From the NCBI RefSeq assembly GCF_003019035.1, contig NZ_CP027447.1: a stretch of 64,000 nt of DNA; one strand, 5' to 3'. Origin of the DNA: Escherichia coli. Its GTDB lineage: Bacteria > Pseudomonadota > Gammaproteobacteria > Enterobacterales > Enterobacteriaceae. Shown one piece after another: positions 13,480 to 31,371 of this stretch. Below the pieces are notes generated by a model. That model ran no database searches and was not told where the DNA came from. It saw nothing but the letters and a program-made list of their open reading frames with translations. Position 1 is the first letter of the stretch. Every line of letters begins with the position of its first letter. The position numbers were made by a program, and so were the translations under genes.

Positions 13480-16452
13480 TTACCAGTGCACTCCAATGGT
13501 GAGAAACGCATTGTTGCGCTCTCCGTTACGTTGATTAATCGCCTTAAAGGTATGTTGATACTCGACGCCGAGACTGACTTTGTGCGGCCAGGCGTCGTAG
13601 TGCGTCTCGCCGGTCCAGATATTCCAGCGGACCCCGACACCGCCAAGCTGCGCGCCCTGAGTGCCTTTATCACGATAGCCGTTGTCCTGAACGTGAGCGT
13701 AAGGCTCAATAGTCTGTCCGTTAGCTACCTTCTGATGCCAGCTGACGCGATAATCTGCCGTCCACGCCTGAATATCCTGGCGGATATATTGCGCTGCATC
13801 GAGGTACAGGTTTTGGGCAAACCAGCCTGAACCGTTCGGGTGCCATTCGTCGCTGTATTTGCCGCCATTAAAGAATGAGGCGCTGGCGCGCAGCATGGTA
13901 TCGGATGCGCCATTTTGCCCGTTCAGCGGCAACTGCTGTTCGACGGCGAGGAAAAAGATCTGATCGCGCAGCGGCTTCCAGCGCAGACCGGTGCCGGACA
14001 TCGGATTTTTCACCGGCATCATCACCCCGTTTTCTCCAGTATCGGCAAATACACGGCTGTAAACCGAGAGCAGGTCGCCTTCCAGCAGCATATTGCGTCC
14101 GATGCGATACTCGGCTTCCAGTTGCCCGTAGCTACGATAGCTTTTCCCTGGCGCTGCGCCGCCGACATTATTGTTAGCGGTACTCATTGCGCCGGAACGC
14201 AAGCCGATAGAAGAATCGAAACTGAACGTCCAGCGGCGACCGACCTCCTCATGCAGACGGCGGAAATTGAAGCGTTGCTGATTTTGCTCTGGGGTCAGTG
14301 GGGTTATCAGCGCCTGATTATCAATGTCATCAATCACCAGCCGGGCGTAGTGCTGCGTCGCAGGCATGTCATCCAGACGCTGGTTCACGTAGGCCAGTTG
14401 TCGGATAAGTGCCGGATCGTCCGGTAGCCCTTTATGCGCCTGTTCGAGCATTTCCCGCGACTGTGCGATATCACCGCTATCCCACAAGGCGTAACCGAGC
14501 GCTGCCTGGGTGTTGCTATTATTCGGTTCCAGTTCCAGCGCGGCGCGCAAATCACTCACCGCCGCCGGGACATTATGACGTTGGCGATAAATTGTCGCCC
14601 GCGCAACGTAAGCGTTGGCAGAAGGCGCAATATTGATTGAGCGCGTGAGATCGTTCAGTGCGAGTTCCGGCTGACCAGGAATGTAACGTTGCGCATGCAG
14701 CCACCAGTAGAGGGCATTGTTTCCCAGCCCACGTTGTTCTGCCTGCTGAAGCCAGCGATCGCGAGCCGCACCATTTCCTGCCGCCTGGGCGGTATTGGCA
14801 GCAGCAAGCAGATCCTCATTGCTCATGTCGTGAAGACTGATTTTCTGCCAGGCCGCCAGTGCGGTGGCGTAGTCCTCAACCTGATACGCCTGATAGGCTA
14901 CCGCACGATGTTGCCAGGCGTTCGGTTGTCGTTGTTCGGCCTGAAGCCATGCATACAACGCCACACCGGGTAGCGTGTCCCGATAACACTTTGCCAGACG
15001 GTTCCAGGCGGCGGCATCGTAGGAAGGCGACATATCGCCCAGCAAGCGAACTATTGCCGGGCAATTATCTGCAATACCCGGCAACTGACTTTGCCACTGA
15101 CGTTGCTCCGCCAGCGGTAAAGGTTTCGATAAAATCGCCACCTTCGCCGGCGTTGCCAGGTAAGGATGACTTTCCAGCAGAGACGCCAGTCGCGCCATTA
15201 ACGTCTGGCTGACACGCGCATCGCCCTGGAAAGGATAGCGTTGCAGCAATAAATCGGCAGCTTCGCGTGACTGCTCGTTCTGCATCAGTTGCCAGGTCAG
15301 TTGATCCAGGCGGGTAAGATTTGCCGGTTCTTGCTGATACAGCAATCGTGCCAGACGCAGAGCTTCAGCCTTGTTATGGGTCGCTACGCTAACGGTATAA
15401 CGCTCCTCAAGCATTTCATTGGCGGGGAGGGTGGCGAGCAGTTTTTGCGCTGCGTCGTACTGACCTTCTTTTAACAGCACCGGTAGCGTCGCGCCAACAA
15501 CATACTGGCGGTTATCGGCAAACTGTACCGTATAATTCGCCAACGCCTGAACGGGGTTGACGCTGTATTTAGATAACAGATAGAGCCAACTTTTCTCTTG
15601 TGCGTCCGTGGTAAACAGCGGCTTATTTTCAATGAGATAATGCTGGAGGCGCGCTTTTTCGCCACGATAAGCCAGCGCGGTCGCGTAAGTAATATATGAC
15701 TGAGGATCGGTGAAGATCCCCTGTGATTGCAGCGCCAGGATCCGATCATCCAGCTGCGCGGCAAGAAGCACGTCAAACCACTGACGGCGTTCTGCCGCGC
15801 TTAATGTGTTCTGCTGGCGTGCTTCATTATATAGCGTATCTGCCTGGGACCATTGTTTCAGGTAGATTGCGCGTTGCAGCAGATCGGTTCGCAACGTTTT
15901 TCCTTCCGGCGATGCAGCAAACGTCGCATCGTTTAGTTGCGCTCTGGCGACAGGTAATTGTGCCAGCCGCAGGGCATTCTGCCCGACTTCACTGCGACAA
16001 CGCAGGGTCGGCGCAGCGTCGCACGCTTTTTGCTGGGCAAGCAGTTCTTCAACAGTCGTAACGCTTTTCACTTCAACTGGAATAGCCGCCAGACTGCGCT
16101 CAAGTCGGGCATCTCCTGGGTGACGTTTCAGTTGATCCTCAAGCAACAGCCGCGCCCGGTCATCATGACCAAAATGGCGATAGGCTTCCGCAAGGTATAA
16201 AGTCAGCGGAATATTATCCGGCACCTGCTGGTGTATATATTCAAATTCGCGGATGGCGGTTGCTTCGTCGTTATTTTTCTGTGCCTTCAGCGCCTTGTCG
16301 AGACGGGGATAAATAACGAAATGGCGATAATCGCTCAGCCCCAGCTCTTCTGCGCTGGTGCCGATATTGTCTGCGAGTGCGCTGGTACTCAATAAAGACG
16401 TCAGCAGTAAACCAGACCATCCGATGACGCGATTAAGGTTATTCTCCTTCAT
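13480..16452 (-). CDS. nfrA: outer-membrane protein NfrA (TPR-rich periplasmic region plus C-terminal beta-barrel; phage N4 adsorption)
   Basis: The start MKENNLNRV... at 16452 gives 990 aa with a signal peptide ending ALA-DN and a C-terminal aromatic residue (..GVHW). It overlaps the nfrB stop by 14 nt. Confidence 0.93.
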   Translation of the reverse strand: MKENNLNRVIGWSGLLLTSLLSTSALADNIGTSAEELGLSDYRHFVIYPRLDKALKAQKNNDEATAIREFEYIHQQVPDNIPLTLYLAEAYRHFGHDDRARLLLEDQLKRHPGDARLERSLAAIPVEVKSVTTVEELLAQQKACDAAPTLRCRSEVGQNALRLAQLPVARAQLNDATFAASPEGKTLRTDLLQRAIYLKQWSQADTLYNEARQQNTLSAAERRQWFDVLLAAQLDDRILALQSQGIFTDPQSYITYATALAYRGEKARLQHYLIENKPLFTTDAQEKSWLYLLSKYSVNPVQALANYTVQFADNRQYVVGATLPVLLKEGQYDAAQKLLATLPANEMLEERYTVSVATHNKAEALRLARLLYQQEPANLTRLDQLTWQLMQNEQSREAADLLLQRYPFQGDARVSQTLMARLASLLESHPYLATPAKVAILSKPLPLAEQRQWQSQLPGIADNCPAIVRLLGDMSPSYDAAAWNRLAKCYRDTLPGVALYAWLQAEQRQPNAWQHRAVAYQAYQVEDYATALAAWQKISLHDMSNEDLLAAANTAQAAGNGAARDRWLQQAEQRGLGNNALYWWLHAQRYIPGQPELALNDLTRSINIAPSANAYVARATIYRQRHNVPAAVSDLRAALELEPNNSNTQAALGYALWDSGDIAQSREMLEQAHKGLPDDPALIRQLAYVNQRLDDMPATQHYARLVIDDIDNQALITPLTPEQNQQRFNFRRLHEEVGRRWTFSFDSSIGLRSGAMSTANNNVGGAAPGKSYRSYGQLEAEYRIGRNMLLEGDLLSVYSRVFADTGENGVMMPVKNPMSGTGLRWKPLRDQIFFLAVEQQLPLNGQNGASDTMLRASASFFNGGKYSDEWHPNGSGWFAQNLYLDAAQYIRQDIQAWTADYRVSWHQKVANGQTIEPYAHVQDNGYRDKGTQGAQLGGVGVRWNIWTGETHYDAWPHKVSLGVEYQHTFKAINQRNGERNNAFLTIGVHW

Positions 16453-18676
16453 TTTCGGACTCCAGTTGCGCAACCTTTTCTGTGTTTAAACCTGCTTTGA
16501 GTAATAGTGATTGCATCGAAACTTGTAATTCGCGTTGAATTGTCAGAACGCGATCCAACGTTTCCTGGCTGATAACGCCTTCGGTGACCAAAAACTTGCC
16601 GAGCGGCAGAGAACTGCGTTCATGGCGCAATAACAACACGTTAATTGCTGAACGATTAATATGACCGAGCGTGGTCAGTATTTCGGCGAACAGGAACTGA
16701 TGCGGCACATATTGCCGCCAGATTTCACCGGCCTGCTGTTCCGTGAGCCACTGATGCTGAACCGCATTGTACAACATTGCCCGCGGATCGTGACCGCGTC
16801 GGCGCGCATACCAGTGGCGTAACCCCGTGACAATTTGTCCCCGCAGAACAATGACGTAACGCACTTTGCGTCCGACTTTACGCGTCAGGGCCGCCAGCGA
16901 AACCGGGTCAATACCATCTTCACTGCCGACAATTAACTCATCATTTTCCAGACGCAGCGGCAGCACTGCATAATGCAGCGCCACGGAGGCCGGCATCTCG
17001 GCAATCAGTGATGAAGGGATCTGCCAGGCGTCGATCGACTCCCACGCCACGCCGTTTTGCTCTGCCAGCGCCTGTGCCAGCTGCTCGGCGCTAATCAGCC
17101 CCTGCATCAGCATTGAACCGCCAAGGCGTAGACCTTCGACGCGATTACGCAGTGCTGTATCGAGTTGTTCTTCAGTGATGACCTGATTTTCCAGCAGAAT
17201 TTGACCTAACGGGCGCAACGAGCGGGTATCGCCAGTCACGCTGGGGAAGTCATGCGTTGTTTTATCCCACGCCACGCGACGTGGATCGCCGTGTTGAAGT
17301 ACCTGTTTTAACGCGCGCCAGTTGGCCATGAAGTTAATCAGGTTGCCCCAGAAAAGACGCAGGACAGATAGTAGCCCCTGCGTCAGGCCGTAGTAGCCAG
17401 TGACGAAAATCACCCGCTGCACGATGCGGTTAACCATCAAGCCAAAGTTTAGCCACAGCAGGGTCATTAACCATGCGCTGCCGCTGAAAATAGAAAGGAA
17501 ATGCCAGGCATCGGGCCACAAACTTTCATACGCCAGTAACAGCAAAAGCTGGATCATCACCAGCATCGCGAGGAAGCTGACAAAGTTACTGATTGCCCCT
17601 TTGCGGTCGCGCCAGAGAAAGTAGTTCAGCGTCAGGCTGGAGGTCCATTTGTGGGTTTTAAAGCCCTGGAAAACAATGCCGATGATCCAGCGAGATTTTT
17701 GTCGAACCGCCGTCGAAAAGGTATCGGGGAAATATTCGCGCACGCAGATCATGTTTGACGTCCGCGCGTGCTGTAAAAATTTACGCTGCTCGCGTTCTTT
17801 GGCTTCGTCCACCACCGGAAAACGGACAAAAATTTCCGTCATACCTTTTTCTTTCAGGCGGAAACCAATGTCGTAATCTTCAGTAAGACTCTGCACGTCG
17901 AAAGCAATACCGTCACCGTCAGCTAACAGTGCGGTCACGGCGCGGCGGCTGAAACAAGTACCGACACCTGCGCTGGGCACCTGTCCGGCGAGGGCTTCAC
18001 GCACCGGAACATCTTTGCCATGCAGTTCTGAAAACTCATCAATGTAAGTCATGCTGGTGAAGTGCGTCCATTCGCGTTCGAATGGGTATACCGGGATCTG
18101 AATCAGATCTTTACGCTCGACCAGATAGTTGAACAGACGCAATTCCATCGGTGAAATTACGTCTTCGGCGTCATGCAGAATAAAACCAGCAAAAGCGAAA
18201 TTGGCGCTACGCTCAAACTGGGTGATGGCGTCCAGCACGTTGTTCAGGCAGTCGGCTTTGCTGGTGGGGCCAGGACGCGCGCAGACTACCTTATGCACGT
18301 TTGGGAAGCGAGCGCACACTTCGTCAACATCACGCTGAGTATCGGGGTCGTTGGGGTAGGTGCCAACAAAGATATGATAGTTTTCATAGTCGAGCGTGGT
18401 CGCCGCCAGCTCGGCCATATTGCCGATGACGCCCGTTTCATTCCACGCCGGAACCATAATCGCTAACGGTTTTTCATCTGGTTTATACAGTTCGCGGTAA
18501 CTCATTCGCGGGTAGCGGCGATAAACACTCAACTTGCGTTTAATGCGGCGTACCCAGTAGACGACATCAATAAAAAAATCGTCCAGCCCGCTGATGAACA
18601 TGATGACCGCTAACGTTATCGCGATTACTTTTAAGCCATATAGCCAGGTTGCAAAAACATCAAGAAGCCAGTCCAC
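16439..18676 (-). CDS. nfrB: inner-membrane family-2 glycosyltransferase NfrB with C-terminal MshEN-type c-di-GMP-binding motifs
   Basis: 745-aa ORF with an N-terminal TM segment and GT2 domain (DAED, QxxRW-like SRW). The 24-residue motif RLGGSMLMQGLISAEQLAQALAEQ at 17057-17128 fits the MshEN consensus. Confidence 0.93.
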   Translation of the reverse strand: MDWLLDVFATWLYGLKVIAITLAVIMFISGLDDFFIDVVYWVRRIKRKLSVYRRYPRMSYRELYKPDEKPLAIMVPAWNETGVIGNMAELAATTLDYENYHIFVGTYPNDPDTQRDVDEVCARFPNVHKVVCARPGPTSKADCLNNVLDAITQFERSANFAFAGFILHDAEDVISPMELRLFNYLVERKDLIQIPVYPFEREWTHFTSMTYIDEFSELHGKDVPVREALAGQVPSAGVGTCFSRRAVTALLADGDGIAFDVQSLTEDYDIGFRLKEKGMTEIFVRFPVVDEAKEREQRKFLQHARTSNMICVREYFPDTFSTAVRQKSRWIIGIVFQGFKTHKWTSSLTLNYFLWRDRKGAISNFVSFLAMLVMIQLLLLLAYESLWPDAWHFLSIFSGSAWLMTLLWLNFGLMVNRIVQRVIFVTGYYGLTQGLLSVLRLFWGNLINFMANWRALKQVLQHGDPRRVAWDKTTHDFPSVTGDTRSLRPLGQILLENQVITEEQLDTALRNRVEGLRLGGSMLMQGLISAEQLAQALAEQNGVAWESIDAWQIPSSLIAEMPASVALHYAVLPLRLENDELIVGSEDGIDPVSLAALTRKVGRKVRYVIVLRGQIVTGLRHWYARRRGHDPRAMLYNAVQHQWLTEQQAGEIWRQYVPHQFLFAEILTTLGHINRSAINVLLLRHERSSLPLGKFLVTEGVISQETLDRVLTIQRELQVSMQSLLLKAGLNTEKVAQLESENEGE

Positions 18677-18816: not shown

Positions 18817-20110
18817 GCGTAGAATGTAGACAAAAGCGTGGTGTCAAGGAGGGGAGGGTAACGCAGGGAAAGATTACGAAAGCCCGCTCCCCGCAAGGAC
18901 TGACGCCAGATAGTTTCTGTCCATGGCTGCTTTTCGCATCTTACGTCTTAACCCTGCCTTGAATACCTTATCATTCGTCAAAATATTAATAGCGATGTGC
19001 CGTATCCCTGAAAATAATTCTGCTGCATTTCCTCTTCTTATTTTGCAGTCGTCTTCATTCATTACCACGTCCAGACGCCAGTGCAGCTTATTCTCCACGT
19101 GCCAGTGGTTTCGGATTGCTGTGGCGAACTTCTCTGCGGTTAAATCAGCAGAACTGATATAATATCTGACCGTCATTTCGGGCTCTTTCTTTTGTTCTGC
19201 TATTATTGACCGAAAGGAGACTGCCACGCATAATTTCTTCAGACCTTTCCATTCAAACGTGAAATCAATAAGTTCATCAGGGACATCGCAAACAATGTGA
19301 AGACGGATTTCTTCTCTGCCGTGACTCTTTTCACTCATTGCGTAACTGTCATGCTCTGGATTATTTAATTCTTTCAGCGGAAATTTTTCCTCGAAGGCTT
19401 TATTTAGCCGCCCCTGGTTTCCTTTTACAGCGAATAAATAATCACCTCCCTGTTTTTGTATCTTCTCTGCAATATCTTTCTGGCAACCCATCGCATCAGT
19501 TGTGATGATTTTTCCTTTAATATCCAGCATGTTAAGAAGTTCTTGGATAGCTGTAATCTCATTGGATTTCTCATCCGTCCTGATCTGTCCGATGACCAGA
19601 CTATGCATTGTTGAGAACGCACTAATGACATGAATCGCTCCCTTGCGGCGACTCTTGTCATAAGAGTGCCGGAGCGTTTTTCCATCAATTGCAATGACGC
19701 CTTTATCATCTGAAGAATGGCAGTCACGCATCCAGTTAATAAAGCACTCGTGAAATTTTGCAGGACTGATACAGGATACAACTCTGGCAATGGTATCGTG
19801 AACAGGAATACCATTTTCAAAATCACCATATTGCTTCAAAAAATCGAGATGTGTTTCCCCAAAATCCTCTATATCTTCCCAGCCTTCTGCACCAGAAATA
19901 ACGGCACAAATAGTCAACAGTAGAATATCCGACAATTTATGTTCCACTTTCCAGGCTTGTCTGTACTCGGGAATAACAGAAATATGTTCTATCAATTTTT
20001 TAAGTACCATTTTGTTCTCCTTAATTATGTAAGGAGTATTTGATCATGTATAAGCAATAAAAAACAGCTTCAGGTAATGAGGAATATCTCAATTTTTAAA
20101 CATAAAATGC
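18817..20110 (-). mobile_element. ISAs1-family insertion sequence (Rhs-associated H-repeat, ISEc1-like); boundaries approximate
   Basis: It contains an intact 378-aa transposase. The tentative ends come from an imperfect terminal inverted repeat (gcgtagaatgtagacaaaa at 18817 versus the reverse complement of tttttaaacataaaatgc ending at 20110). By hand this matches at about 12 of 19 positions. It gives about 1.29 kb, which is the size I recall for H-repeat elements. Confidence 0.55.
18874..20010 (-). CDS. ISAs1-family transposase (H repeat-associated protein, YhhI/YdcC/YbfL-like)
   Basis: 378-aa ORF, near-identical over its whole length to the K-12 H-repeat proteins as I remember them (…[44 protein letters not shown]…[20 protein letters not shown]…). 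Confidence 0.93.
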
Positions 20111-20117
20111 GAATTAT

Positions 20118-20834
20118 TTAGTACAAAAAAGCAGCGTTACGTGATCTTTCCCTGTGTAATCCCCCAGCTAAATCATGAACTTTTTGAGCCATTTTACTTA
20201 ATTCAGGGCAGGCTCCTAAACCTAATGGATCTGTGAAGCAACACGGATTCAGCACATAACCATAAGTGTTTAGTCCACCCAATACACCCAGGGGGTCACT
20301 CACCAGATACATCCCGGTCTCCGGCTCGTAGTACCGGAACCGGTTATAGCACAGCCCTGACTCCGCATCCCGCCACTGCCCCGCATACAGCAGACCGGGG
20401 TCCGCTTCTGCGTCTCGCTCCCCGCGCGGGTCCGGGTAGTCCCTGTCTGCGCTGACGCTGAGTGCCAGCCCCCACAGGCTGGTCTGCTCCGCACGCCACA
20501 CCACGTTACCCTGACTGTTAAAGAGCATCACCGGGCGGCCTGTCAGGTCGCTTACCGCATGGCTGGTCCGCGTCACCCACTGCGGGGCCACGGACGGGTG
20601 CGGCTGCCGTACCCGGCTGAACTGCTGGCTTATCAGCTCAAAGCCGTTAAACACCAGGTACCGCACACTGTACAGTTTATCATCGCGGTATTCCCGGATT
20701 TCCGCAATAGTGTCGCCGTCCCACAGATATGTGATGCGGAGGGCTTTTTGTTTGCAGCGTTTCTCTGTCCGTCTGCCACTGGCGTCGTGGCAGTATTCCC
20801 ACTGCTCACCCCGGGCGCTGCGGTAGCCGATCAC
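20118..20834 (-). pseudogene. orphan rhs 3' fragment (core end plus a 32-codon tip), not an independent gene
   Basis: It aligns with residues near the end of the full-length Rhs core (168 of 204 residues identical by hand alignment), including DPLGV..(18)..DPLGL. Homology continues upstream of the first Met to about 20850 with no SD or start context. Only 32 codons follow DPLGL before the stop, which lies 7 nt from the tentative IS end. Confidence 0.8.
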
Positions 20835-20850
20835 GGCTGTCGTGGCGGAA
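20217..20850 (-). repeat. direct repeat copy 1 (rhs core 3' end, orphan copy)
   Basis: About 630 bp, collinear with 21694-22335 in the same orientation. It has one small indel near the upstream end. Confidence 0.8.
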
Positions 20851-20863
20851 CTTTATCTCTTTT

Positions 20864-21253
20864 TTATTTAATCCAGTAAGCTAATCTCTCACCAATCTTC
20901 AAATTTTCTCTTTTGTAATAAAATACAGTATCAAAGTTAATGGATATTTTTTTCGCAATAACTTTGAATTTCAATTCAAATTCCGAATAAAACTCTAATA
21001 CTAACATTTCACGAGCATTGTCAGTGCAACTTGATAGCTTAATAAACTCCTCATTAAGATCGCATGACCAGTCCATAACACCGCTAATATAGCATGGCGT
21101 GTCTATTATTATTTCCAGTGTGTGATAGTAAGAAAGGTCATCACTCCCGGAAATAATCAAGCGATTATGTTCATAAAGAAAAACTGAAAAATCCAACCAA
21201 CTTTCTTTCCAATTATGGTGCTTTATATCATTAATTATGTTTTGCTCACTCAT
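20864..21253 (-). CDS. putative cognate Rhs immunity protein (family unassigned)
   Basis: 129-aa ORF whose ATG overlaps the rhs stop (ATGA at 21250-21253). It shares the AT-rich composition of the toxin tip. It has no signal peptide or TM segment, and its position is typical of rhsI genes. Confidence 0.7.
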   Translation of the reverse strand: MSEQNIINDIKHHNWKESWLDFSVFLYEHNRLIISGSDDLSYYHTLEIIIDTPCYISGVMDWSCDLNEEFIKLSSCTDNAREMLVLEFYSEFELKFKVIAKKISINFDTVFYYKRENLKIGERLAYWIK

Positions 21254-24200
21254 GGAATAGTTCCTGTAGGCAATGGTATATGAGTATCATTTGCAGCTCC
21301 TGGATTATAATTCGGACTTTTAGTTTTCAAATCAGATGTATGATGCCAACTGCCATCAGGAGAACCATACTCCCAACCATAGCCTTGATTAGTCGCAGGA
21401 TTTGTTCCACTTTGGCTTCTACCAATCCTATATATGGGGCCATTGGCAGAATTACTCCCTGCTGGAGCAGTAGGGTTTACATCATGAGCCCTTACTTCAT
21501 ATTTATAATTTCCGACGGTGAATTTTTCTTTAAATTTTATAGGGTAGTTATGCCCAGACAAGCCTTGCCGATGTAAAGCATAATTTAACACATCCTGCGG
21601 TGAGGTATTTTTAATTGCTTGATGCGCTTGTGCTGCTGTCATACCTTGAGAACGATTGTATTTATACCAATCATACATCACAGGACATATAGCTAATCCC
21701 AAAGGATCAACATACCCCAGCGGATTAGGCACATACCGGTAAGTCTGCTCACCCCCCAGCAACCCCAGTGGATCACTCACCAGGTACATCCCGGTTTCCG
21801 GCTCGTAATACCGGAACCGGTTATAGCACAGCCCCGATTCCGCATCCTGCCACTGCCCCGCATACAGCAGGCCGGGGTCGGCTTCCGGGTCCAGCTCCCC
21901 GCGCGGGTCCGGGTAGCCGGTGTCTGCGGGCAGGCTGAGTGCCAGCCCCCACAGGCTGGTCTGCCCCGGTCGCCAGACGGTTTTACCTTCACTGTTAAAG
22001 AGCACCAGCGGACGGCCCGTCAGGTCGCTCACCGCATGATTCGTTCGCGTCACCCACTGCGGGGCCACGGACGGATGCGGCTGCCGTACCCGGCTGAACT
22101 GCTGACTCAGCAGCTCAAAGCCGTTAAACACCAGGTGCCGTACGCTGTACAGTTTATCATCCCGGTATTCCCGCATTTCCGCAATACTGTCGCCGTCCCA
22201 CAGATACGTAAAACGGATTTTCTTCCGGTCGCAGCGTTTTTCCGTCCGCCTGCCGCTGGCGTCGTGGCGGTATTCCCACTGCTCACCCTGTGCGCTGCAA
22301 TACCCGGTCAGCTGGTCCCGGCTGTCCCACCGGAACCGCTCTGTTTCCGGGCGGTAGCCGTCACGGTGTCTGGTGCGGCTGACCATCCGGCCTGCGGCGT
22401 CATAGCTGTAGTCTGTGTTTCCGGTCTGTTTCAGCCGGTGGCCGCGCTGATACATGTCAGTATCCACGCTTATCCGGTGCCTGCCCGCCGACTGCGCCTT
22501 CAGGTAGCCACAACTGTCATAGCCATAGGACTCATCGCCTTCGCCATAGCCCAGCCCGGTGCCTGAGGCTGTCACCGCCGTGACCTGGCCGTTCCGGTCC
22601 AGCCGGTACTCCCGCCGTGTTTCCCGTCCGTAGTCTTCCCGGCTGGTGACAGCCGACATATTGCCCGCGCTGTCGTAACGGTACTCCCGCACCAGTGAGG
22701 GGAGCAGTCCGCCCCATGTGGCTTCCGCCGGGAAAAGTCCGGCGCGCTGGCTGGTAAGCTGACCGGCTGCATTCCAGCCCTGCTCACAGGCAAAACCCCG
22801 GTTACTGTGCCGGAGCACTTCACGTCCTGCCTCATCACGGCTGAACGTCAGCGTCTCATCCCCCGGCAGGATAACCTCCGTCAGTTCTCCGGCGGCGTTG
22901 TAGCGGTAGGTGGTTTTCAGCAGGGATTCACCGGGGTGTCTGTCGCGTTCATCTTCCGGTGGCAGGATACAGCGGATGACGGTGTGTTCATCGGGGTGGT
23001 GGTATTCAATGGCCCGTCGGCCCTGAGTGGTGACATTCACCCGCCCGCGTTCGTCATAGCCGGTGCGCTGTGATGTACCGTCCGGGCTGAAGATACCCGT
23101 CAGCCTGCCGGATTTGTCATAGGCATACTGCGTTTTGCCTTCCGGCGAGATGACTTCTGCCAGGCGGCCTGCGGCGTCCCGGCTGTAGAGGATAGTTTCC
23201 TCCAGGCCGTTAACCCTGGCGGTACAAAGGCCATCGGCGTCATAGCGGTAACGCCAGACCACGCCGCCCCAGTCACGCTCTTCCGTCACCCGTCCACAGT
23301 TGTCCAGAATATAACGGTATGACTCGCCCTGCGGATTGATGACTTCTGTCAGTTGCAGCGTGTCTTTATCGTAGCGGTACTGCCAGCGGTGGCCTTCACC
23401 GTCCGTTCGCGCCACCGGCAAATCGAACGGGCCGTATTCCATCGTCCAGACAACGCCGTTGCCGTCCGTCCAGGCCAGCAGGTTGCCGTGGCGGTCATAG
23501 CGAAATCCTTCCGCGCCGGTGCCAGTGCGTTCAAGGCCGCTCAGTTTATGGTGCTGCTGCCACCGTAACCGCACTGACTGACCGCCGGGGCCGCGCATCT
23601 TCACCGGCAGGTCGTGACCGCTGTATTCGGTGTGGTGTTCACGGCCCATCACGTCGGTGAGTGTTTCCGGCCGGTTGTGGTGGTCGTACTCTATGCCCAG
23701 ACGCCGTTCATCCTGGCGGAATATCCCCGACAGCAGCCCCTGCGGCGTGTACGCCAGCCGGGTCTCTTCGCCCTGTGGCGACACCAGACTTACCGGCAGG
23801 CCGCGTTCATCACACTGCTGCGTCCACATCTGCCCGGCAGGGTCGGTGATGTTGCTGAGCAGGCCGCGCTCATCATAGCAGTACTGCCACTCCGCACCGT
23901 CTGCCGCCGTGTAACGGCTTAACTGACCGTGTGCGGCGTTGTATTCAAACTTCTCCACCCGCCCGGCAGGGGAGTGGCGGGCCAGCAGGTGATGGAATTC
24001 ATCCCATTCATACATGGTGGTGCTGCCGTCCGGCGCTGCTTCCCGCAGAATATTGCCGTCAGGATCATAGTAATAACGGTGAATGCCCTTGCCGTCCGTC
24101 ACGGTGGTGCAGCCGTCACCATAGTCCAGCGTGGCGTTGTAATAGCCCTCCGCCCCGGTGACGGTCACGCACCGGCCCTGTGCATCGTAGGTGAAACGGC

Positions 24201-26103
24201 TCCACGTCTGGTCGTTATCGGACCAGCGGATGATCCGGTCCGCAGCGTCGTACTCATAAAACAGGTGGTAGTCCAGCCGCGCATCCGCTTCTGTCAGCCG
24301 CCCCCGCGCATCCTGTTCGTAGGTCGCCAGCATCTGTATGCCGTTATCCGTACGGTGAATGGCTTTCAGGTAGCCGCTGGCATGGTACGTCAGTTTAAGC
24401 CGGATCCCGTCGGTGTGACTGACACCCATGATGCGGTACTGGCTGTCGCGCTCAAACGTGATGCGGTTGCTGGCGGTGTCGCTCATCCCGCCCAGCATGT
24501 ACATCCGGTCTGCGGGGCTGTGTGCCAGACGGTCATCGCAGGTATCGTCAGTCACCGGGTGGCGCAGGCGCATTCCCGGAAAGGCGTCATAAAAGAAGCG
24601 GCTGCTCAGTGCATCACGGTCGAACAGCTCCAGGTAATCGTCGCGGCGGCGCAGAATGTACTGGGCGTGATACGGGTTAACCGCCGTATCACTGTCACCG
24701 TCGAAGGCAAATCTCAGCGTGGTTCCCTGGCTGATGATATCCACCCGGTTTCCCTGTTCACGCACCCAGGCGTATTCGCTCCAGGAGTCGCTCCAGCCCA
24801 CGCCCGTCAGACCATGCAGCGGCAGTACAGAACTGTGGAAACGGGTGAAGGAGAGGGGGAGTGTCTGGCCCAGCGTAAAGTCGGTACGTTCGTCGCAGTA
24901 TGCGCCGGTTACCGGATCGACAGGATCTGTTACCCATCTGATGACTTTATTGGCAATACTTTTTAACGACTTACCTGTTTTCCCCAGCAACGCGCCGAGC
25001 TTTGCCCCCAGCAGCTTCCCGCTTTTCCCCAGCAGGTTTCCCAGTTTGCCGAGTTTCGCCAGATTCCCCAGTTTTCCCAGCAGTCCCGCGGGCGGCAGAA
25101 GATAGCTGGCTATCGTTATTCCCCCCAGGATCATTCTCTGCCACGGCGGGAACTCCGGCTGGATATCCAGATAGGTCACCTGTTCACCGCCAATAAAGAC
25201 GTCCGGCGAACCTTCCACGATTGCCGCGCTGCACTCCAGTTTGTCCCCTTTGCGTGCGGCAGTCTGATTGTTGATAAAGACGTTGCTGCTGCCCTGGGCT
25301 ATCCTCGGTGGTTTGTTCTCCTTGTCGCAGAGCGCCGTGTCCTCACCGGCTTCCGGGAAATCCACGTCTTTTTTGATTTCGCCACGCCCGCCCACCATGG
25401 TGGCAAACTCCATTAATACCGGACCGGCGGGAAACAGAAGCGATGCGCCGGCGCTGACGCGATCCATAATACCGGCATTGCTGTCCGTCAGGGTGATAAC
25501 AGCGTTCCCCCAGGCCTTCGCCAGTGGTACTGCTTTTTCCGCTGCCGATTCAAGCAGGTCAGTGGCAATATCACCCCATGAGGGTTCCCCCTGTGGTGGA
25601 GAGGGTATTGCTTCAGTCAGGGGAGGAGGGGGAAGGGTGACGGCGGCCCTGGCAGCGGGCTTTCCGTTAATGTTTACATTTTTAGAACCAGTATTGATGG
25701 CCCCGTCCGTGTCACAAAAACTGTTTATCCATGATTCAAGCTGGTTCTGTTTCTCCTCCACATAATCACTCGCCTTATAGCTGGCATACATCAGCGCAGG
25801 CACCAGAACCAGCGCATAAGGGCCGGTGGCACAGGCGGCCATAATCAGGCAACCTTCTGCGATGGTCACTATCGCCCCCAGCACGGCCCCTGCCAGCGCC
25901 CCCAAAAAACTCTTGTGCTGAATTTCATCGCCCAGCCTGGCTGCGGGGGGGCCAGACTTTTTTGATGCCAACATCTGTGCAATGGCTTTGTCGTTGGCTG
26001 CCCGTTTCATCTGGCTGGCGACCATCGCCTGCTGTGACAGCATTCGCATTGCCAGCGTACCGCCTGCGGTCGCTCCCTGTGGCCCGCCTGGTCCTTCACT
26101 CAT
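21250..26103 (-). CDS. rhs: T6SS prePAAR/PAAR-Rhs polymorphic toxin (1617 aa) with a 147-aa variable C-terminal toxin domain
   Basis: The N-terminus carries the prePAAR motif AARLGDEIQH and two hydrophobic helices. PAAR-like motifs follow (INGKPAARA, INNQTAARKGD, VFIGGE). The Rhs core starts at RWVTDPVDPVTGAY and contains many YD repeats. The core ends at DPLGLLGGEQTYRYVPNPLGYVDPLGL, followed by an unrelated AT-rich tip (21253-21693). Confidence 0.93.
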   Translation of the reverse strand: MSEGPGGPQGATAGGTLAMRMLSQQAMVASQMKRAANDKAIAQMLASKKSGPPAARLGDEIQHKSFLGALAGAVLGAIVTIAEGCLIMAACATGPYALVLVPALMYASYKASDYVEEKQNQLESWINSFCDTDGAINTGSKNVNINGKPAARAAVTLPPPPLTEAIPSPPQGEPSWGDIATDLLESAAEKAVPLAKAWGNAVITLTDSNAGIMDRVSAGASLLFPAGPVLMEFATMVGGRGEIKKDVDFPEAGEDTALCDKENKPPRIAQGSSNVFINNQTAARKGDKLECSAAIVEGSPDVFIGGEQVTYLDIQPEFPPWQRMILGGITIASYLLPPAGLLGKLGNLAKLGKLGNLLGKSGKLLGAKLGALLGKTGKSLKSIANKVIRWVTDPVDPVTGAYCDERTDFTLGQTLPLSFTRFHSSVLPLHGLTGVGWSDSWSEYAWVREQGNRVDIISQGTTLRFAFDGDSDTAVNPYHAQYILRRRDDYLELFDRDALSSRFFYDAFPGMRLRHPVTDDTCDDRLAHSPADRMYMLGGMSDTASNRITFERDSQYRIMGVSHTDGIRLKLTYHASGYLKAIHRTDNGIQMLATYEQDARGRLTEADARLDYHLFYEYDAADRIIRWSDNDQTWSRFTYDAQGRCVTVTGAEGYYNATLDYGDGCTTVTDGKGIHRYYYDPDGNILREAAPDGSTTMYEWDEFHHLLARHSPAGRVEKFEYNAAHGQLSRYTAADGAEWQYCYDERGLLSNITDPAGQMWTQQCDERGLPVSLVSPQGEETRLAYTPQGLLSGIFRQDERRLGIEYDHHNRPETLTDVMGREHHTEYSGHDLPVKMRGPGGQSVRLRWQQHHKLSGLERTGTGAEGFRYDRHGNLLAWTDGNGVVWTMEYGPFDLPVARTDGEGHRWQYRYDKDTLQLTEVINPQGESYRYILDNCGRVTEERDWGGVVWRYRYDADGLCTARVNGLEETILYSRDAAGRLAEVISPEGKTQYAYDKSGRLTGIFSPDGTSQRTGYDERGRVNVTTQGRRAIEYHHPDEHTVIRCILPPEDERDRHPGESLLKTTYRYNAAGELTEVILPGDETLTFSRDEAGREVLRHSNRGFACEQGWNAAGQLTSQRAGLFPAEATWGGLLPSLVREYRYDSAGNMSAVTSREDYGRETRREYRLDRNGQVTAVTASGTGLGYGEGDESYGYDSCGYLKAQSAGRHRISVDTDMYQRGHRLKQTGNTDYSYDAAGRMVSRTRHRDGYRPETERFRWDSRDQLTGYCSAQGEQWEYRHDASGRRTEKRCDRKKIRFTYLWDGDSIAEMREYRDDKLYSVRHLVFNGFELLSQQFSRVRQPHPSVAPQWVTRTNHAVSDLTGRPLVLFNSEGKTVWRPGQTSLWGLALSLPADTGYPDPRGELDPEADPGLLYAGQWQDAESGLCYNRFRYYEPETGMYLVSDPLGLLGGEQTYRYVPNPLGYVDPLGLAICPVMYDWYKYNRSQGMTAAQAHQAIKNTSPQDVLNYALHRQGLSGHNYPIKFKEKFTVGNYKYEVRAHDVNPTAPAGSNSANGPIYRIGRSQSGTNPATNQGYGWEYGSPDGSWHHTSDLKTKSPNYNPGAANDTHIPLPTGTIP
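21694..22335 (-). repeat. direct repeat copy 2 (rhs core 3' end, in the full-length gene)
   Basis: Homologous to 20217-20850; see the orphan fragment. Confidence 0.8.
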
Positions 26104-26122: not shown

Positions 26123-26584
26123 TCAGCGCGGCTGGTCCTTTTGGATGTCATTCTCCGGTGGCAACGGGGTGAAGCTCTTTATCACCTCCAGCAGCATCGT
26201 CTTTTGACTGTTCTTCAGGGATAAGGAGGTGCTGAAAGTGAAGGTCAGCAGCGTATCTCCACGCCGCTGGAATACGGCTATCTGGCTAATCCGCCCCTGA
26301 TTCCCTTCATCTTCCGGACCGTTCCAGGAATAATCCAGCAGCCAGGCCGGGGCCTCTGCCAGAGTGATTTCCCGGCAGGCATGTTCGGTGTACCCATCAA
26401 GTTTGCCCTGGTACAGCGCCAGCGTTTCCTGGTACAGCTCTGGTGTCAGGGTTCCCTGTGGAACGGCTTCGCGGGTAATGACCAGGTTGATGCCACTGTT
26501 ATCTGTGGACACCAGGACCTGCATTGACTGATCCTGCCATTGAGACGGCAGTTGAATGTGGCCTTCATTAAAAGTGAACTGCAT
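26123..26584 (-). CDS. DUF1795 (DcrB-like) Eag-family effector chaperone
   Basis: 153-aa ORF (MQFTFNEGHIQLPSQWQDQSMQVLV...) located between vgrG and the prePAAR-Rhs gene, with an AGGGAG SD. Its size, N-terminal pattern and position are typical of EagR/SciW chaperones. Confidence 0.8.
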   Translation of the reverse strand: MQFTFNEGHIQLPSQWQDQSMQVLVSTDNSGINLVITREAVPQGTLTPELYQETLALYQGKLDGYTEHACREITLAEAPAWLLDYSWNGPEDEGNQGRISQIAVFQRRGDTLLTFTFSTSLSLKNSQKTMLLEVIKSFTPLPPENDIQKDQPR

Positions 26585-26611: not shown

Positions 26612-28513
26612 TCAGTTGATGAAAACAGAACCGCCCACGATGGTGATGCCATCCTTCGACAGCCTGATTACCGTCGATTCCCCGACCTGTAGCTGTATGC
26701 CATCCGGCGTCAGCGCAATTTTGCTTTCCTCCACGGCCAGCAAAATTTCCTTAATCGCCGTATAAGCCTGTATACCGTCGCCTTCGCCACCATTGTTTAC
26801 AGCGTCAACATGCACCGAACCGGCAATCGTGCCTCTGTCCTGAAAGACATCCTCAGATAAAGACCCTTTCAGTACTCCGGTGATCTTGTGGCCTTTTTCC
26901 ACCGTAAGAAGGCGGTTACCTTCCTGGATCGTGACCGTCTGGTCATTTTTTACGGTTTCGCGGTGATCGTGTTTTACGGTGGTGGTACGGTCGTTGAGCA
27001 CTTCGGTATCCATGTTCTTCTGCGCGTGGATGTAGACCTGTTCTCTCCCTGTCGCATCATCAAACTTCAGCTCATTAAATCCGCTGCCCATGTACGTTTT
27101 GGAGCGGATGGTCATCTGCGTCTTTGTTCCCGGCAGGCTGCCGGGGGTGCGGTTTTCCTGGTGGTAGGTGCGCCCCATAATGATCGGCTGGTCCGGATCG
27201 CCGTTGAGGAAGTCTACAATCACTTCCTGACCCACACGCGGTATCGCCAGGTGGCCAAAACCGGTGCCTGCCCACGCCTGTGCCACACGGATCCAGCACG
27301 AACTGTCTTGGTCTGCCGGGTTATAACGGTCCCAGTTGAACTTCACCCGCACGCGACCATGTTCGTCGCAGAAGATTTCCTCGCCTGCCGGTCCTGTCAC
27401 GACAGCGCTCTGCGGGCCGTCGACCAGCGGTTTCAGCAACGGCTGTGGTCGCCATGTTCTGTCTGCCGGGATCACCGCAAAATGGTTCTCCAGCGCCGTC
27501 CCCGCTCCCTGCCGTCCTGGCACCGCCTGTGGCTGTTCGCCGTGCAGTTCACTTGCCACCACCTGCCATTCCCGGTTCAGGTTCGCCTGCGGATGCCCCG
27601 TCAGCACAATTCGTCGTCCCGGCCATATCTCCGGCGAGCGACTCATTCCCCGCGCGGTTTCTGCATTGTTTCGCCAGCCGTCCATCTGCCAGCGGGCAAA
27701 GTTCTGCCCGTGGGCACCCTTGAAACGTCCGGGGTAGTCATACACTTCATACTGCGTGCGCTGGTAGTCCTGGTGCTGGCCTTCCTGTTCAAAACGTCCG
27801 GCCCAGCCGGGGCGTTTAAAGGTGTAGTCTTTGGTCACCACGGAAGAAGGGCGGATTTGTGCGCTGTAGCGGAACTGGCTGATGCAGAGGGTGCTCACCT
27901 CGGTACGGGTGTTCGGGTTCCATGGGATTTCAAAAGATTCGGGCAGATGGCGGACTGTGTCGCACAGCACCAGGCTCTGGTCGGTACTTTTGTAAGCATG
28001 CTCCTCATAAAAGAAGATGCCTTCCTCCGCCGCCATCCGGCACAGGAAATCGTAATCAGTCTCACCGTACTGGACACAAAACTCACGGGAAGGATGCGGC
28101 TCGCTGAACAGCGGACTCCATTCGGTCACCCCGTTTTCCTGCAACATCGTGCCGAGGATGCTTTTGATGTCCTCGTTCTGGAAGATACGGAAGTTCTGGC
28201 GCAGACCGGCACGCCACAGCGGCGGGTGCACCTTCATGCTGTACAGCATCTGGTTTTTGTCGTTCTCCCCCAGTTCAAACCAGGTCACCACGCCTTTCAC
28301 CCGGCGCTGTACTTCATCGCCCTGCCATATCGTCAGGTAGGCCATTTTGTCCAGCACCTGCGCAAATTCAAGGGAGAGAAACTGCTGGCTGACCAGGGAG
28401 AGATCGAGGGAAAAGAGCGAAGAGAGTGACTGGTTCAGATGAAAGGAAACCACCGCAAAAGCATCCGGCGGCAGGCCGTCCACTTCCAGTGTGAAACGTA
28501 ATCCGGTTGACAT
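26612..28513 (-). CDS. vgrG: T6SS spike protein VgrG
   Basis: 633-aa ORF with a gp27-like N-terminus (MSTGLRFTLEVDGLP...) and a gp5-like OB and beta-helix region (VGQEVIVDFLNGDPDQPIIMGRTYH). A GGAGG SD lies 8 nt upstream. Confidence 0.93.
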   Translation of the reverse strand: MSTGLRFTLEVDGLPPDAFAVVSFHLNQSLSSLFSLDLSLVSQQFLSLEFAQVLDKMAYLTIWQGDEVQRRVKGVVTWFELGENDKNQMLYSMKVHPPLWRAGLRQNFRIFQNEDIKSILGTMLQENGVTEWSPLFSEPHPSREFCVQYGETDYDFLCRMAAEEGIFFYEEHAYKSTDQSLVLCDTVRHLPESFEIPWNPNTRTEVSTLCISQFRYSAQIRPSSVVTKDYTFKRPGWAGRFEQEGQHQDYQRTQYEVYDYPGRFKGAHGQNFARWQMDGWRNNAETARGMSRSPEIWPGRRIVLTGHPQANLNREWQVVASELHGEQPQAVPGRQGAGTALENHFAVIPADRTWRPQPLLKPLVDGPQSAVVTGPAGEEIFCDEHGRVRVKFNWDRYNPADQDSSCWIRVAQAWAGTGFGHLAIPRVGQEVIVDFLNGDPDQPIIMGRTYHQENRTPGSLPGTKTQMTIRSKTYMGSGFNELKFDDATGREQVYIHAQKNMDTEVLNDRTTTVKHDHRETVKNDQTVTIQEGNRLLTVEKGHKITGVLKGSLSEDVFQDRGTIAGSVHVDAVNNGGEGDGIQAYTAIKEILLAVEESKIALTPDGIQLQVGESTVIRLSKDGITIVGGSVFIN

Positions 28514-30698: not shown

Positions 30699-31371
30699 CC
30701 GGCACCTCAAGCATATAGCCCACGCCGCGCACGGTCTGAATCAGCTTCGGCTCAAAGTCGTTGTCGATTTTGCCGCGTAGCCGCTTCACCGCCACATCAA
30801 TGGCGTTAGTGTCGCTGTCGAAATTCATGTCCCACACCTGCGAGGCGATAAGCGAGCGGGGCAGCACTTCACCCTGATGGCGGAGGAAAAACTCCAGCAA
30901 AGTAAATTCTTTACTGGTCAACGTGATGCGCGTGCCGCTACGGGTGACTTTGCGGCTGACGAGATCGACCATCAGATCGGCAACCTGAAACTGACTTTCG
31001 ATAATCACCGCCGCCCCGCGCCGCAGTAGAGTGCGCACCCGCGCCAGCAGTTCAGCAAAAGCGAACGGCTTAACCAGATAGTCATCCGCCCCCAACTCCA
31101 GCCCCTTGACGCGATGTTCAATGGTGCCAAGCGCGGTAAGCAACAGAATCGGCATCCCCTTATTGGCGGAACGCAACATGCGCACGATATCCCAGCCGTT
31201 CACGTCCGGCAGCATAATATCGAGGATTATCAGATCATAATCACCGGTCATCGCCAGATGGTAGCCATTCAGCCCGTTGTCGGCCAAATCGACCACAAAA
31301 CCGGCTTCGGTTAACCCTTTGGTCAAGTATTCTCCGGTTTTCTTTTCATCTTCGACAATCAACAGTTTCAT
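30688..31371 (-). CDS. cusR: OmpR-family response regulator CusR
   Basis: 227-aa ORF with a receiver domain ([14 protein letters not shown]) and a winged-helix output domain. Recognised as CusR. Confidence 0.96.

What the first reader, a model, noticed from the sequence alone, without database searches (positions are those of the whole stretch)
20118..22335. Displaced orphan rhs 3' end forming a ~630-bp direct repeat with the active gene; its toxin tip is only 32 codons and abuts the IS
Seen in the sequence: 20217-20850 is collinear with 21694-22335 in the same orientation. By hand alignment 168 of 204 residues are identical, including both DPxGL motifs. The toxin/immunity pair lies between the two copies. 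The orphan has no start or SD context. Only 32 codons (GACPELSKMAQKVHDLAGGLHRERSRNAAFLY) follow its DPLGL before a stop that lies 7 nt from the tentative IS terminus. Established knowledge: this is the classical footprint of Rhs tip replacement, in which an incoming core-end/toxin/immunity cassette displaces the previous tip downstream. Inference: the earlier toxin and its immunity gene were probably deleted or truncated when the H-repeat element arrived. The repeat remains a substrate for RecA-mediated deletion of the current toxin/immunity pair or for tip switching.
Basis: partly seen in the sequence, partly recalled or inferred. Interest (0 to 1): 0.55.

Follow-up and report, generated by a model that had tools for sequence, protein, structure and literature searches.

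The report
IS-truncated orphan Rhs toxin remnant
Just downstream of an intact type VI secretion Rhs toxin gene in this E. coli window lies a dead, displaced copy of the gene's 3' end, whose former DNA-deaminase toxin is cut off after 20 codons at the end of an ISEc1 (H-repeat) insertion sequence; this is ordinary debris at an rhs locus that has already been described.

Summary
The repeat is real. Window 20205-20828 and 21682-22305 (- strand, offset 1477) align without gaps: 516/624 nt and 170/208 aa identical. The Ntox30 toxin tip and its immunity gene lie between the copies.

This is E. coli rhs "position 4" (nfrB-cusS, clade IV rhs), the locus Jackson et al. 2009 used to illustrate C-terminal displacement. 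RefSeq already marks the orphan as a pseudogene.

One correction matters. The IS is ISEc1 at 18864-20154 (1291 bp, CAGGGAAAGAT ends), so its end lies inside the orphan reading frame. Only 20 codons plus 2 nt of the "32-codon tip" are native. The tail RERSRNAAFLY and the stop codon are IS sequence.

The intact ancestor exists elsewhere: a 151-aa protein identical through ...AGGLH that continues into an MsddA-like DNA deaminase (HAE/PCxxC), followed by a 182-aa putative immunity gene. Homology with the window stops exactly at the IS end, so the truncation is shown.

"When the IS arrived" is doubtful. ISEc1 sits at this end of the island in 788 genomes, with at least five different left junctions, which points to IS-end-anchored deletions.

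Recombination between the repeats is possible but disfavoured: longest exact run 31 bp, and 0 of 82 genomes carry the deletion. Ordinary; low interest.

The parts
26612..28513 (-). vgrG (T6SS spike protein), first gene of the island between cusS and nfrB
   Evidence: ORF; RefSeq annotation of the identical locus in FDAARGOS_497
26123..26584 (-). DcrB/Eag-type chaperone gene
   Evidence: Pfam DcrB, 1.4e-27; RefSeq 'DcrB-related protein'
21250..26103 (-). Full-length prePAAR-PAAR-DUF6531-RHS repeat effector gene (1617 aa) with an Ntox30 C-terminal toxin
   Evidence: Pfam hits: RHS_repeat 7.7e-76, PAAR 1.4e-14, DUF6531, Ntox30 1.3e-10. The prePAAR_I hit (22.4 bits) is below the 25-bit cut-off
21682..22305 (-). 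Repeat copy in the active gene (3' core, aa 1267-1474, including both DPLGL motifs)
21253..21693 (-). Current toxin tip (147 aa after DPLGL, Ntox30); low G+C (0.40) against 0.61 for the core
20864..21253 (-). Immunity gene candidate for the Ntox30 tip (129 aa, no Pfam hit, G+C 0.31); its start overlaps the rhs stop by 4 nt
   Evidence: Found together with the toxin in 120 E. coli genomes
20217..20852 (-). Orphan rhs core fragment. The frame is open from 20852 and ends with DPLGL at 20217-20231. This is the second repeat copy (20205-20828)
   Evidence: RefSeq pseudogene
20155..20216 (-). Surviving stub of the former toxin tip: GACPELSKMAQKVHDLAGGL plus 2 nt. These are the first 20 residues of an MsddA-like deaminase toxin
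   Evidence: 100% identical to P0001 residues 1-34, counting the core end. DNA homology to L007 ends at 20155
20118..20154 (-). IS-encoded tail of the chimeric ORF (third base of the His codon, RERSRNAAFLY, TAA)
18864..20154 (-). ISEc1 / H-repeat (ISAs1 family), 1291 bp, terminal CAGGGAAAGAT inverted repeats, intact 378-aa DDE transposase gene at 18874-20010. No target-site duplication
   Evidence: Ends fixed; IR; Pfam DDE_Tnp_1_assoc and DDE_Tnp_1; annotated as ISAs1/ISEc1 family transposase
18819..18863 (-). 45 nt of island-specific sequence between the IS right end and the backbone shared with K-12-type genomes. It lacks 67 nt that EDL933, M10 and FORC_043 have next to the IS

Best explanation
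This is the distal end of the E. coli 'position 4' T6SS Rhs island (vgrG, Eag, PAAR-Rhs, immunity gene, orphan, ISEc1, between cusS and nfrB).

The proposed history has three steps.
1. The rhs gene, or an earlier orphan, once carried an MsddA-like DNA-deaminase tip with its own immunity gene.
2. An incoming cassette (core fragment, Ntox30 tip, immunity gene) recombined into the core and pushed the old core end and tip downstream. That created the ~600-bp direct repeat. This is the C-terminal displacement model.
3. Everything from codon 21 of the deaminase tip onward was later lost, including the catalytic HAE/PCxxC region and the immunity gene. One end of that loss lies exactly at the left terminus of the ISEc1 copy at the nfrB end of the island.

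The most likely mechanism for step 3 is an IS-end-anchored deletion. That means either transposase-mediated adjacent deletion, or insertion of a second copy followed by IS x IS recombination.

The remaining ORF is a non-functional chimera. It has no start context, 20 native tip codons, and 11 codons plus the stop read from the IS.

Shown: the repeat, the IS ends, the truncation point, the identity of the lost toxin, and the variable left junctions. Inferred: the order of events and the deletion mechanism.
For: - Repeat: 86% DNA and 82% protein identity, collinear, same strand.
- Locus identity: annotated vgrG, DcrB-related, RHS, pseudogene RHS, ISAs1 transposase, nfrB. Described as position 4 / clade IV rhs with arrays of dissociated tips in PMC2935791.
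- IS ends at 20154 and 18864: alignments to IS copies in other E. coli genomes begin or end there. Length 1291 bp with CAGGGAAAGAT inverted repeats.
- Intact ancestor: P0001 is 100% identical over the 31-aa query and continues as PF24174 MsddA-like (1.7e-28), with NHAER...PCPHC conserved in relatives.
- On L007 it is followed by a 182-aa ORF. Window-L007 DNA homology (96.5%) ends at 20155. No other part of the deaminase or its neighbour is found anywhere in the window.
- The stub occurs in 82 of 5426 complete genomes, always with the same IS junction.
- Resident IS with a variable left side: 788 genomes have the IS next to this nfrB flank. Left junctions differ: window type 82 genomes, EDL933 type 317, M10 type 17, which cuts an rhs core, DETEC-S792 and FORC_043.
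- EDL933 equals FORC_043 minus 315 nt ending exactly at the IS terminus.
- The window-type right junction is shared by DETEC-S792, which has a different left side.
- No target-site duplication flanks the IS.
Against: - The order of events cannot be read from one sequence.
- A fresh ISEc1 insertion into the tip, followed by loss of downstream DNA, gives the same end product.
- I did not verify that ISEc1 normally makes target duplications. The 8-10 bp figure for the ISAs1 family is from memory. The E. coli W genome paper states that H-rpt transposition has not been observed (PMC3032704).
- The host of the intact deaminase module is unknown. It is known only from short Logan contigs. It is absent from 185,579 species-representative genomes and from all complete E. 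coli genomes. It is therefore an inference that this lineage's ancestor carried that exact arrangement.
- The window orphan's core is only 83-91% identical to the orphan core at the same place in M10, so the orphan is a mosaic and its history may involve further exchanges.
Confidence: 0.85

Rival explanations
1. ISEc1 newly transposed into the orphan deaminase tip. Its arrival truncated the toxin, and the downstream toxin remainder and immunity gene were lost at that moment or soon after, for example by recombination with an older ISEc1 copy at the island end.
For: - The junction is exactly at an intact IS terminus.
- DETEC-S792 shows an ISEc1-like copy sitting inside the first 119 nt of another copy, so insertion events do seem to happen at this locus.
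- The end product cannot be told apart from an adjacent deletion.
Against: - No target-site duplication.
- The IS right flank is the conserved island end next to nfrB, not the rest of the deaminase gene. A simple insertion is therefore excluded and a further deletion step is needed anyway.
- The same right junction occurs with a different left side in another lineage.
Confidence: 0.3
2. The 32-residue tip is a complete, natural short C-terminus, or a small functional peptide, and not a truncation.
For: It is conserved at 99% or more in 82 genomes. A 238-aa ORF can be called mechanically, and that ORF is present in protein collections (P0009).
Against: - The last 11 codons and the stop are IS sequence shared by IS copies in other E. 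coli genomes.
- The intact 151-aa homologue continues past the junction into a deaminase domain.
- There is no SD or start context, and RefSeq calls it a pseudogene.
- All 82 genomes share one junction, so the conservation reflects common descent.
Confidence: 0.01
3. The 600-bp repeat is a working recombination substrate. RecA-mediated crossover between the copies regularly deletes the Ntox30/immunity pair or switches tips, as in Salmonella LT2 (PMC3967940).
For: - Direct orientation, ~600 bp, and five exact runs of 26-31 bp. These are at or above the ~25-bp minimal processing segment, a value I give from memory.
- Recombination between the homologous parts of the main and orphan rhs genes was shown experimentally in S. 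Typhimurium.
Against: - Divergence is 14-17% and the runs are short.
- All 82 genomes with the orphan stub still have the toxin/immunity pair. The counts 82 + 38 = 120 match the immunity-gene count.
- The recombinant would carry no toxin and would lose immunity to the toxin made by its siblings, so it should be selected against.
Confidence: 0.07

Closest known systems
E. coli rhs position 4 (nfrB-cusS, clade IV rhs) arrays of dissociated C-terminal tips; Jackson et al. 2009, BMC Genomics 10:584 (PMC2935791)
   Same: Same chromosomal site, same clade of rhs, and the same architecture: a full gene followed by core-fragment and tip modules in the same orientation. [quoted passage not shown]
   Different: In the passages I searched, that paper does not mention the IS or H-repeat at the array end ('H-rpt', 'transposase' and 'insertion sequence' had 0 occurrences). 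Here the tip loss is mapped to the base at the ISEc1 terminus, and the lost tip is identified.
Salmonella Typhimurium LT2 rhs-main / rhs-orphan locus; Koskiniemi et al. 2014 (PMC3967940)
   Same: The orphan CT module lies downstream of the main rhs gene and shares core homology with it. Recombination between the homologous regions can fuse the main gene to the orphan tip.
   Different: The Salmonella orphan has a complete toxin and immunity gene, so switching gives a new weapon. Here the orphan toxin is destroyed and its immunity gene is gone, so switching would only disarm the cell.
H-repeat / ISEc1 elements of E. coli K-12 Rhs elements (RhsB, RhsE; Zhao and Hill, 1990s; from memory) and the ISAs1 family
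   Same: A 1291-bp element with a 378-aa DDE transposase and CAGGG ends, lying at the distal end of an Rhs element. Copies elsewhere are annotated 'ISAs1-like element ISEc1 family transposase'.
   Different: No target duplication here. The flanks on both sides differ from those in other lineages by losses that end exactly at the IS termini. Transposition of H-rpt is said not to have been observed (PMC3032704).
MsddA-like DNA cytosine deaminase toxins of polymorphic toxin systems (Pfam PF24174; Vaisvila et al. 2023 preprint, 10.1101/2023.06.29.547047)
   Same: The intact homologue P0001 matches the family over residues 22-138 (1.7e-28) and has the HAE and PCxxC zinc motifs. The family is described as coming from polymorphic toxin systems.
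   Different: The window keeps only the first 20 residues of the tip, which lie upstream of all catalytic residues. The window copy is therefore a remnant of a family member and not a functional one.

Membership tests
Rhs orphan ('dissociated') C-terminal module | Lies downstream of a full-length rhs gene, on the same strand | tested here: met
   Orphan at 20155-20852 and main gene at 21250-26103, both on the - strand
Rhs orphan ('dissociated') C-terminal module | Starts with a 3' core fragment homologous to the main gene's core end, including the PxxxxDPxGL boundary | tested here: met
   170/208 aa identical, both DPLGL motifs aligned; 516/624 nt identical
Rhs orphan ('dissociated') C-terminal module | Lacks the N-terminal delivery part and its own translation start | tested here: met
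   The frame opens only at 20852, 11 nt after the immunity stop. No SD before GTG 20834. RefSeq: 'missing N-terminus and C-terminus'. Expression itself was not tested.
Rhs orphan ('dissociated') C-terminal module | Carries a distinct toxin tip followed by a cognate immunity gene | tested here: not met
   Only 20 native tip codons remain and no immunity gene is present. The intact relative on L007 has both. This is a truncated remnant of such a module.
ISEc1 / H-repeat (ISAs1 family IS) | About 1.3-kb element with terminal inverted repeats beginning CAGGG | tested here: met
   1291 bp. The first 11 nt are identical at both ends, with further matches beyond. The ends coincide with BLAST boundaries in other E. 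coli genomes.
ISEc1 / H-repeat (ISAs1 family IS) | Single DDE transposase ORF of about 378 aa | tested here: met
   ORF 18874-20010, 378 aa; DDE_Tnp_1_assoc 1.1e-32 and DDE_Tnp_1 4.2e-30; annotated as ISAs1 family transposase
ISEc1 / H-repeat (ISAs1 family IS) | Flanking target-site duplication (8-10 bp for the family, from memory) | tested here: not met
   Flanks are ...GGGGGATTACA | IS | CGTTACCCTCC..., with no direct repeat. This fits a deletion or recombination after insertion and does not argue against IS identity.
MsddA-like deaminase toxin (PF24174) | Deaminase domain with HAE and PCxxC zinc-binding motifs | tested here: not met
   The window stub ends 20 residues into the tip. The motifs are present in the intact homologue P0001 and in relatives P0002-P0008 but are found nowhere in the window.
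T6SS PAAR-Rhs effector locus | vgrG, Eag/DcrB chaperone and prePAAR/PAAR-Rhs gene in a row | tested here: met
   (DcrB 1.4e-27, PAAR 1.4e-14; prePAAR_I at 22.4 bits is just under the 25-bit cut-off)

The most novel reading that the evidence does not exclude
ISEc1 (the H-repeat) has long been treated as an immobile relic of Rhs elements. It may instead be an active trimmer at the distal end of rhs orphan arrays. From a fixed position next to nfrB, it would repeatedly generate deletions whose endpoint is exactly its own terminus. On the left these deletions cut into orphan toxins, immunity genes and rhs core fragments. On the right there is the 67-nt loss. That would set the length and content of the orphan and immunity arsenal in different E. 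coli lineages.
Probability: 0.3. Interest if true: 0.35.

Novelty: already known. Interest (0 to 1): 0.17.

Why it matters
It matters little beyond correct annotation. The orphan is a dead remnant at a well-described locus.

Two small points are useful:
- The 3' end of the ORF is IS-encoded. Anyone mining Rhs "tips" from this lineage should not treat the 32-residue tail as a toxin type.
- The stub is a fossil of an MsddA-like DNA-deaminase Rhs toxin. The intact form is absent from all 5,426 complete E. coli genomes searched. This shows that this lineage, or its donor, once had access to a deaminase effector.

The comparison of junctions also hints that ISEc1 prunes orphan arrays. That would be of modest interest to people who study Rhs and immunity-gene turnover.

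Tried and rejected
- A word-indexed protein search with the tip failed twice. The 29-aa query was too short, and the 42-aa query had no candidate sharing three words. The exhaustive HMMER scan then found the intact homologue.
- A scan of 185,579 species-representative genomes with P0001 confirmed no relative, so the host of the intact module stays unknown.
- L007 against complete E. coli genomes matched only the truncated stub and generic rhs core.
- One hit looked like a 590-nt insertion in most genomes (H162, two pieces). This was an artefact of joining the two repeat copies; the locus is identical to the window.
- I looked for a target-site duplication and found none.
- The 11 nt outside each IS end are 7/11 complementary (I1). 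I judged this to be chance, because the EDL933 flanks do not show it.
- A literature search for ISEc1 returned a paper about ISEc12, which is irrelevant.
- A search for the ISAs1 'CAGGG' ends gave no directly usable source. The family's target-duplication size is therefore quoted from memory.
Full report
**What is there.**
All genes below are on the - strand of the window, in this order:
- cusS, 29250-30710
- vgrG, 26612-28513
- a DcrB/Eag chaperone gene, 26123-26584
- a 1617-aa rhs gene, 21250-26103
- a 129-aa ORF whose start overlaps the rhs stop, 20864-21253
- an rhs 3' fragment, frame open from 20852
- a 378-aa transposase gene, 18874-20010
- nfrB, 16439-18676

The identical locus in strain FDAARGOS_497 is annotated in RefSeq as VgrG, DcrB-related protein, RHS core protein, hypothetical protein, an RHS pseudogene "missing N-terminus and C-terminus", ISAs1 family transposase, NfrB and NfrA. 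Pfam places PAAR, DUF6531, ten RHS repeats and a C-terminal Ntox30 toxin domain on the long protein. A prePAAR hit falls just below its cut-off. This is therefore a T6SS PAAR-Rhs effector island inserted between nfrB and cusS.

**The repeat is real.**
- A local DNA alignment pairs 20244-20839 with 21721-22314 at 509/589 = 86.4%. The repeat finder reports the 300-nt core of it with spacing 1477.
- In codon register the two copies align without any gap over 208 codons (20205-20828 vs 21682-22305). That gives 516/624 nt and 170/208 aa identical, including both DPLGL motifs. 64 of the 108 mismatches are at third codon positions.
- The Ntox30 tip (21253-21693, 147 aa after DPLGL) and the putative immunity gene lie between the copies.

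- I used a 271-nt query across the orphan/IS boundary. The IS copies in other E. coli genomes begin to match at query position 177, which is window 20154.
- A query across the other side shows IS copies ending at window 18864.
- The element is thus 18864-20154, 1291 bp. It has CAGGGAAAGAT at both ends and further inverted-repeat matches beyond. It carries an intact DDE transposase. Closely similar copies in other genomes are annotated "ISAs1-like element ISEc1 family transposase".
- This is the H-repeat of the classical Rhs literature (name and history from memory; PMC3032704 mentions H-rpt at rhs tips).
- The orphan's stop codon (20118-20120) is therefore 34 nt inside the IS, not 7 nt from its end.
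- Of the "32-codon tip", GACPELSKMAQKVHDLAGGL plus the first two bases of the His codon (20155-20216) are native. The third base of His, RERSRNAAFLY and TAA are read from the IS.

**The truncation is shown.**
- The native stub DNA occurs in 82 of 5426 complete E. coli genomes, always at 99% identity or more. The same number of genomes carries the IS junction. No IS-free version exists in that set.
- A word-indexed protein search found nothing.
- An exhaustive HMMER scan of 1.84 billion representatives with the 31 residues across DPLGL and the stub returned one protein, P0001 (E = 1.3e-13, 100% identity).
- P0001 is 151 aa: MLNPCCFTDPLGLGACPELSKMAQKVHDLAGGLH, then APDLRAIRNS...NHAERIILRNL...PCPHCEPFVRDAGG....
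- It matches Pfam PF24174, the MsddA-like bacterial deaminase domain, at 1.7e-28. Its HAE and PCxxC motifs are conserved in seven relatives of 50-59% identity.
- MsddA-like enzymes are DNA cytosine deaminases from polymorphic toxin systems (10.1101/2023.06.29.547047).
- P0001 is encoded on three short Logan contigs. On L007 it is followed, 6 nt later, by a 182-aa AT-rich ORF, the expected immunity gene. Another rhs core fragment comes after that.
- Window-to-L007 DNA homology is 96.5% over window 20298-20155 and stops exactly at the IS end.
- By tblastn only residues 1-34 of P0001 are present in the 64-kb window. Nothing of its neighbour is present.
The lost toxin was a deaminase of about 117 residues.

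**Was it "the arrival of the IS"? Probably not in the simple sense.**
- The nfrB-side flank of the IS is common backbone and island end.
- ISEc1 lies next to that flank in 788 genomes.
- The left junction, however, varies:
  - In EDL933 the IS follows a complete orphan zincin toxin and its small immunity gene. This junction is present in 317 genomes.
  - In FORC_043 the same sequence runs 315 nt further, into an N-proximal rhs core fragment, before meeting the IS. EDL933 thus equals FORC_043 minus 315 nt ending exactly at the IS terminus.
  - In M10 the IS cuts an rhs core fragment at the equivalent of window 20365. This junction is present in 17 genomes.
  - In DETEC-S792 the IS follows a 119-nt remnant of another IS left end.
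  - In the window it cuts the deaminase tip.
- On the right side, the window lacks 67 nt that EDL933, M10 and FORC_043 have between the IS and the shared flank.
- That window-type right junction is found in 88 genomes, including DETEC-S792, whose left side is different.
- No target duplication flanks the window's IS.
- Taken together, an intact IS with fixed position and variable flanks whose breakpoints lie exactly at its termini is the signature of IS-end-anchored deletion. The mechanism could be adjacent deletion, or a second-copy insertion followed by IS x IS recombination.
- A plain new insertion is excluded, because the rest of the deaminase gene is not on the other side of the IS.
- Which of the two deletion routes acted is an inference that I cannot resolve.

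**Displacement history.**
- The Ntox30 tip, its immunity gene and the 11-nt spacer are 99-100% identical between the window and strain M10.
- The orphan cores that follow start at the same base but are only 83-91% identical. From about 20298 onward they are unrelated.
- In M10 and O111:H21 strain 15A the orphan at that position carries a complete AHH nuclease tip and an immunity gene.
- The last ~80 nt of the window orphan's core, plus the stub, match the L007 deaminase module instead. The orphan is thus a mosaic.
- This is what the circular-intermediate model of Jackson et al. predicts. That paper uses exactly this site, "position 4, nfrB-cusS, clade IV rhs", as its E. coli example. It already notes strains with a terminal core fragment lacking a tip (PMC2935791).

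**Recombination potential.**
- The repeats are direct and about 600 bp long, but 14-17% diverged. The longest exact runs are 31, 29, 29, 26 and 26 bp. These are at the lower limit for efficient RecA-dependent exchange (threshold from memory).
- The immunity gene occurs in 120 genomes, and 120 genomes cover at least 80% of the toxin-immunity-orphan query. Of these, 82 are in the identity bands of 95% and above, and 38 are M10-like at 90-95%. The stub occurs in 82 genomes.
- The counts leave no room for a stub-bearing genome that has lost the toxin/immunity pair, so 0 of 82 carry the deletion.
- A crossover would also produce an Rhs protein with no toxin in a cell that had lost immunity to its siblings' toxin. 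Tip switching as seen in Salmonella LT2 (PMC3967940) has no payoff here.

**Verdict.**
The interpretation (a displaced orphan, truncated at the IS) is right in substance and is now documented with the intact ancestor. The timing claim and the recombination claim are weak. The feature is an ordinary, already annotated pseudogene at a published model locus. The only mildly new points are the identity of the lost toxin (an MsddA-like deaminase absent from complete E. coli genomes) and the comparative hint that ISEc1 trims the array from its own ends.

Noticed in passing
window 18819-18863 and the IS right junction at 18863/18864: The window lacks 67 nt that EDL933, M10 and FORC_043 carry between the ISEc1 right end and the shared nfrB-side flank. 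The loss ends exactly at the IS terminus. This right junction is present in 88 of 5426 genomes. K-12-type genomes without the island join the backbone at about 18818.
   Followed up: partly
window 20155-20165 and 18853-18863: The 11 nt just outside the two IS ends are 7/11 complementary to each other (GGGGGATTACA vs the reverse complement GGAGGGTAACG). This extends the apparent inverted repeat to 36 nt (I1). The EDL933 flanks do not show it, so it is probably chance.
   Followed up: partly
L004 (E. coli DETEC-S792) 7616-7760: A 119-nt remnant of an ISEc1 left end is followed directly by a complete ISEc1-like copy whose first ~25 nt after CAGGGAAAGATCA differ from the window's. It looks like an IS-into-IS insertion. 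A symE fragment and three orphan rhs modules lie upstream.
   Followed up: partly
L005 (E. coli M10) 13560-14293 and L010 (FORC_043) 6175-6355: Two further rhs fragments are cut exactly at the ISEc1 left terminus. One is a C-proximal core piece in M10. The other is an N-proximal core piece (…AHSPADRMY) in FORC_043.
   Followed up: partly
L006 (E. coli O111:H21 15A) 12820-13982: An IS3 copy occupies the island end next to nfrB instead of ISEc1. It sits a few nt inside the 67-nt segment.
   Followed up: no
NZ_LR890334.1 (E. coli MINF_9A), hits H110 and H154: The nfrB-side flank matches for only 35 nt, and a phage terminase gene is annotated next to the ISEc1 right junction. This suggests a prophage insertion or rearrangement at this point.
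   Followed up: no
window 20853-21693 vs L005 7554-8425: The Ntox30 tip, its immunity gene and the 11-nt spacer are 99-100% identical in lineages whose downstream orphans differ (deaminase stub here, AHH nuclease in M10). Both orphans start at the same base. This fits one cassette type integrating in front of different resident tips.
   Followed up: partly
window 20864-21253; L007 1463-2011: Neither the 129-aa Ntox30-linked ORF nor M10's 177-aa AHH-linked ORF has a Pfam match. The 182-aa ORF after the intact deaminase was not scanned. All are called immunity genes by position only.
   Followed up: no
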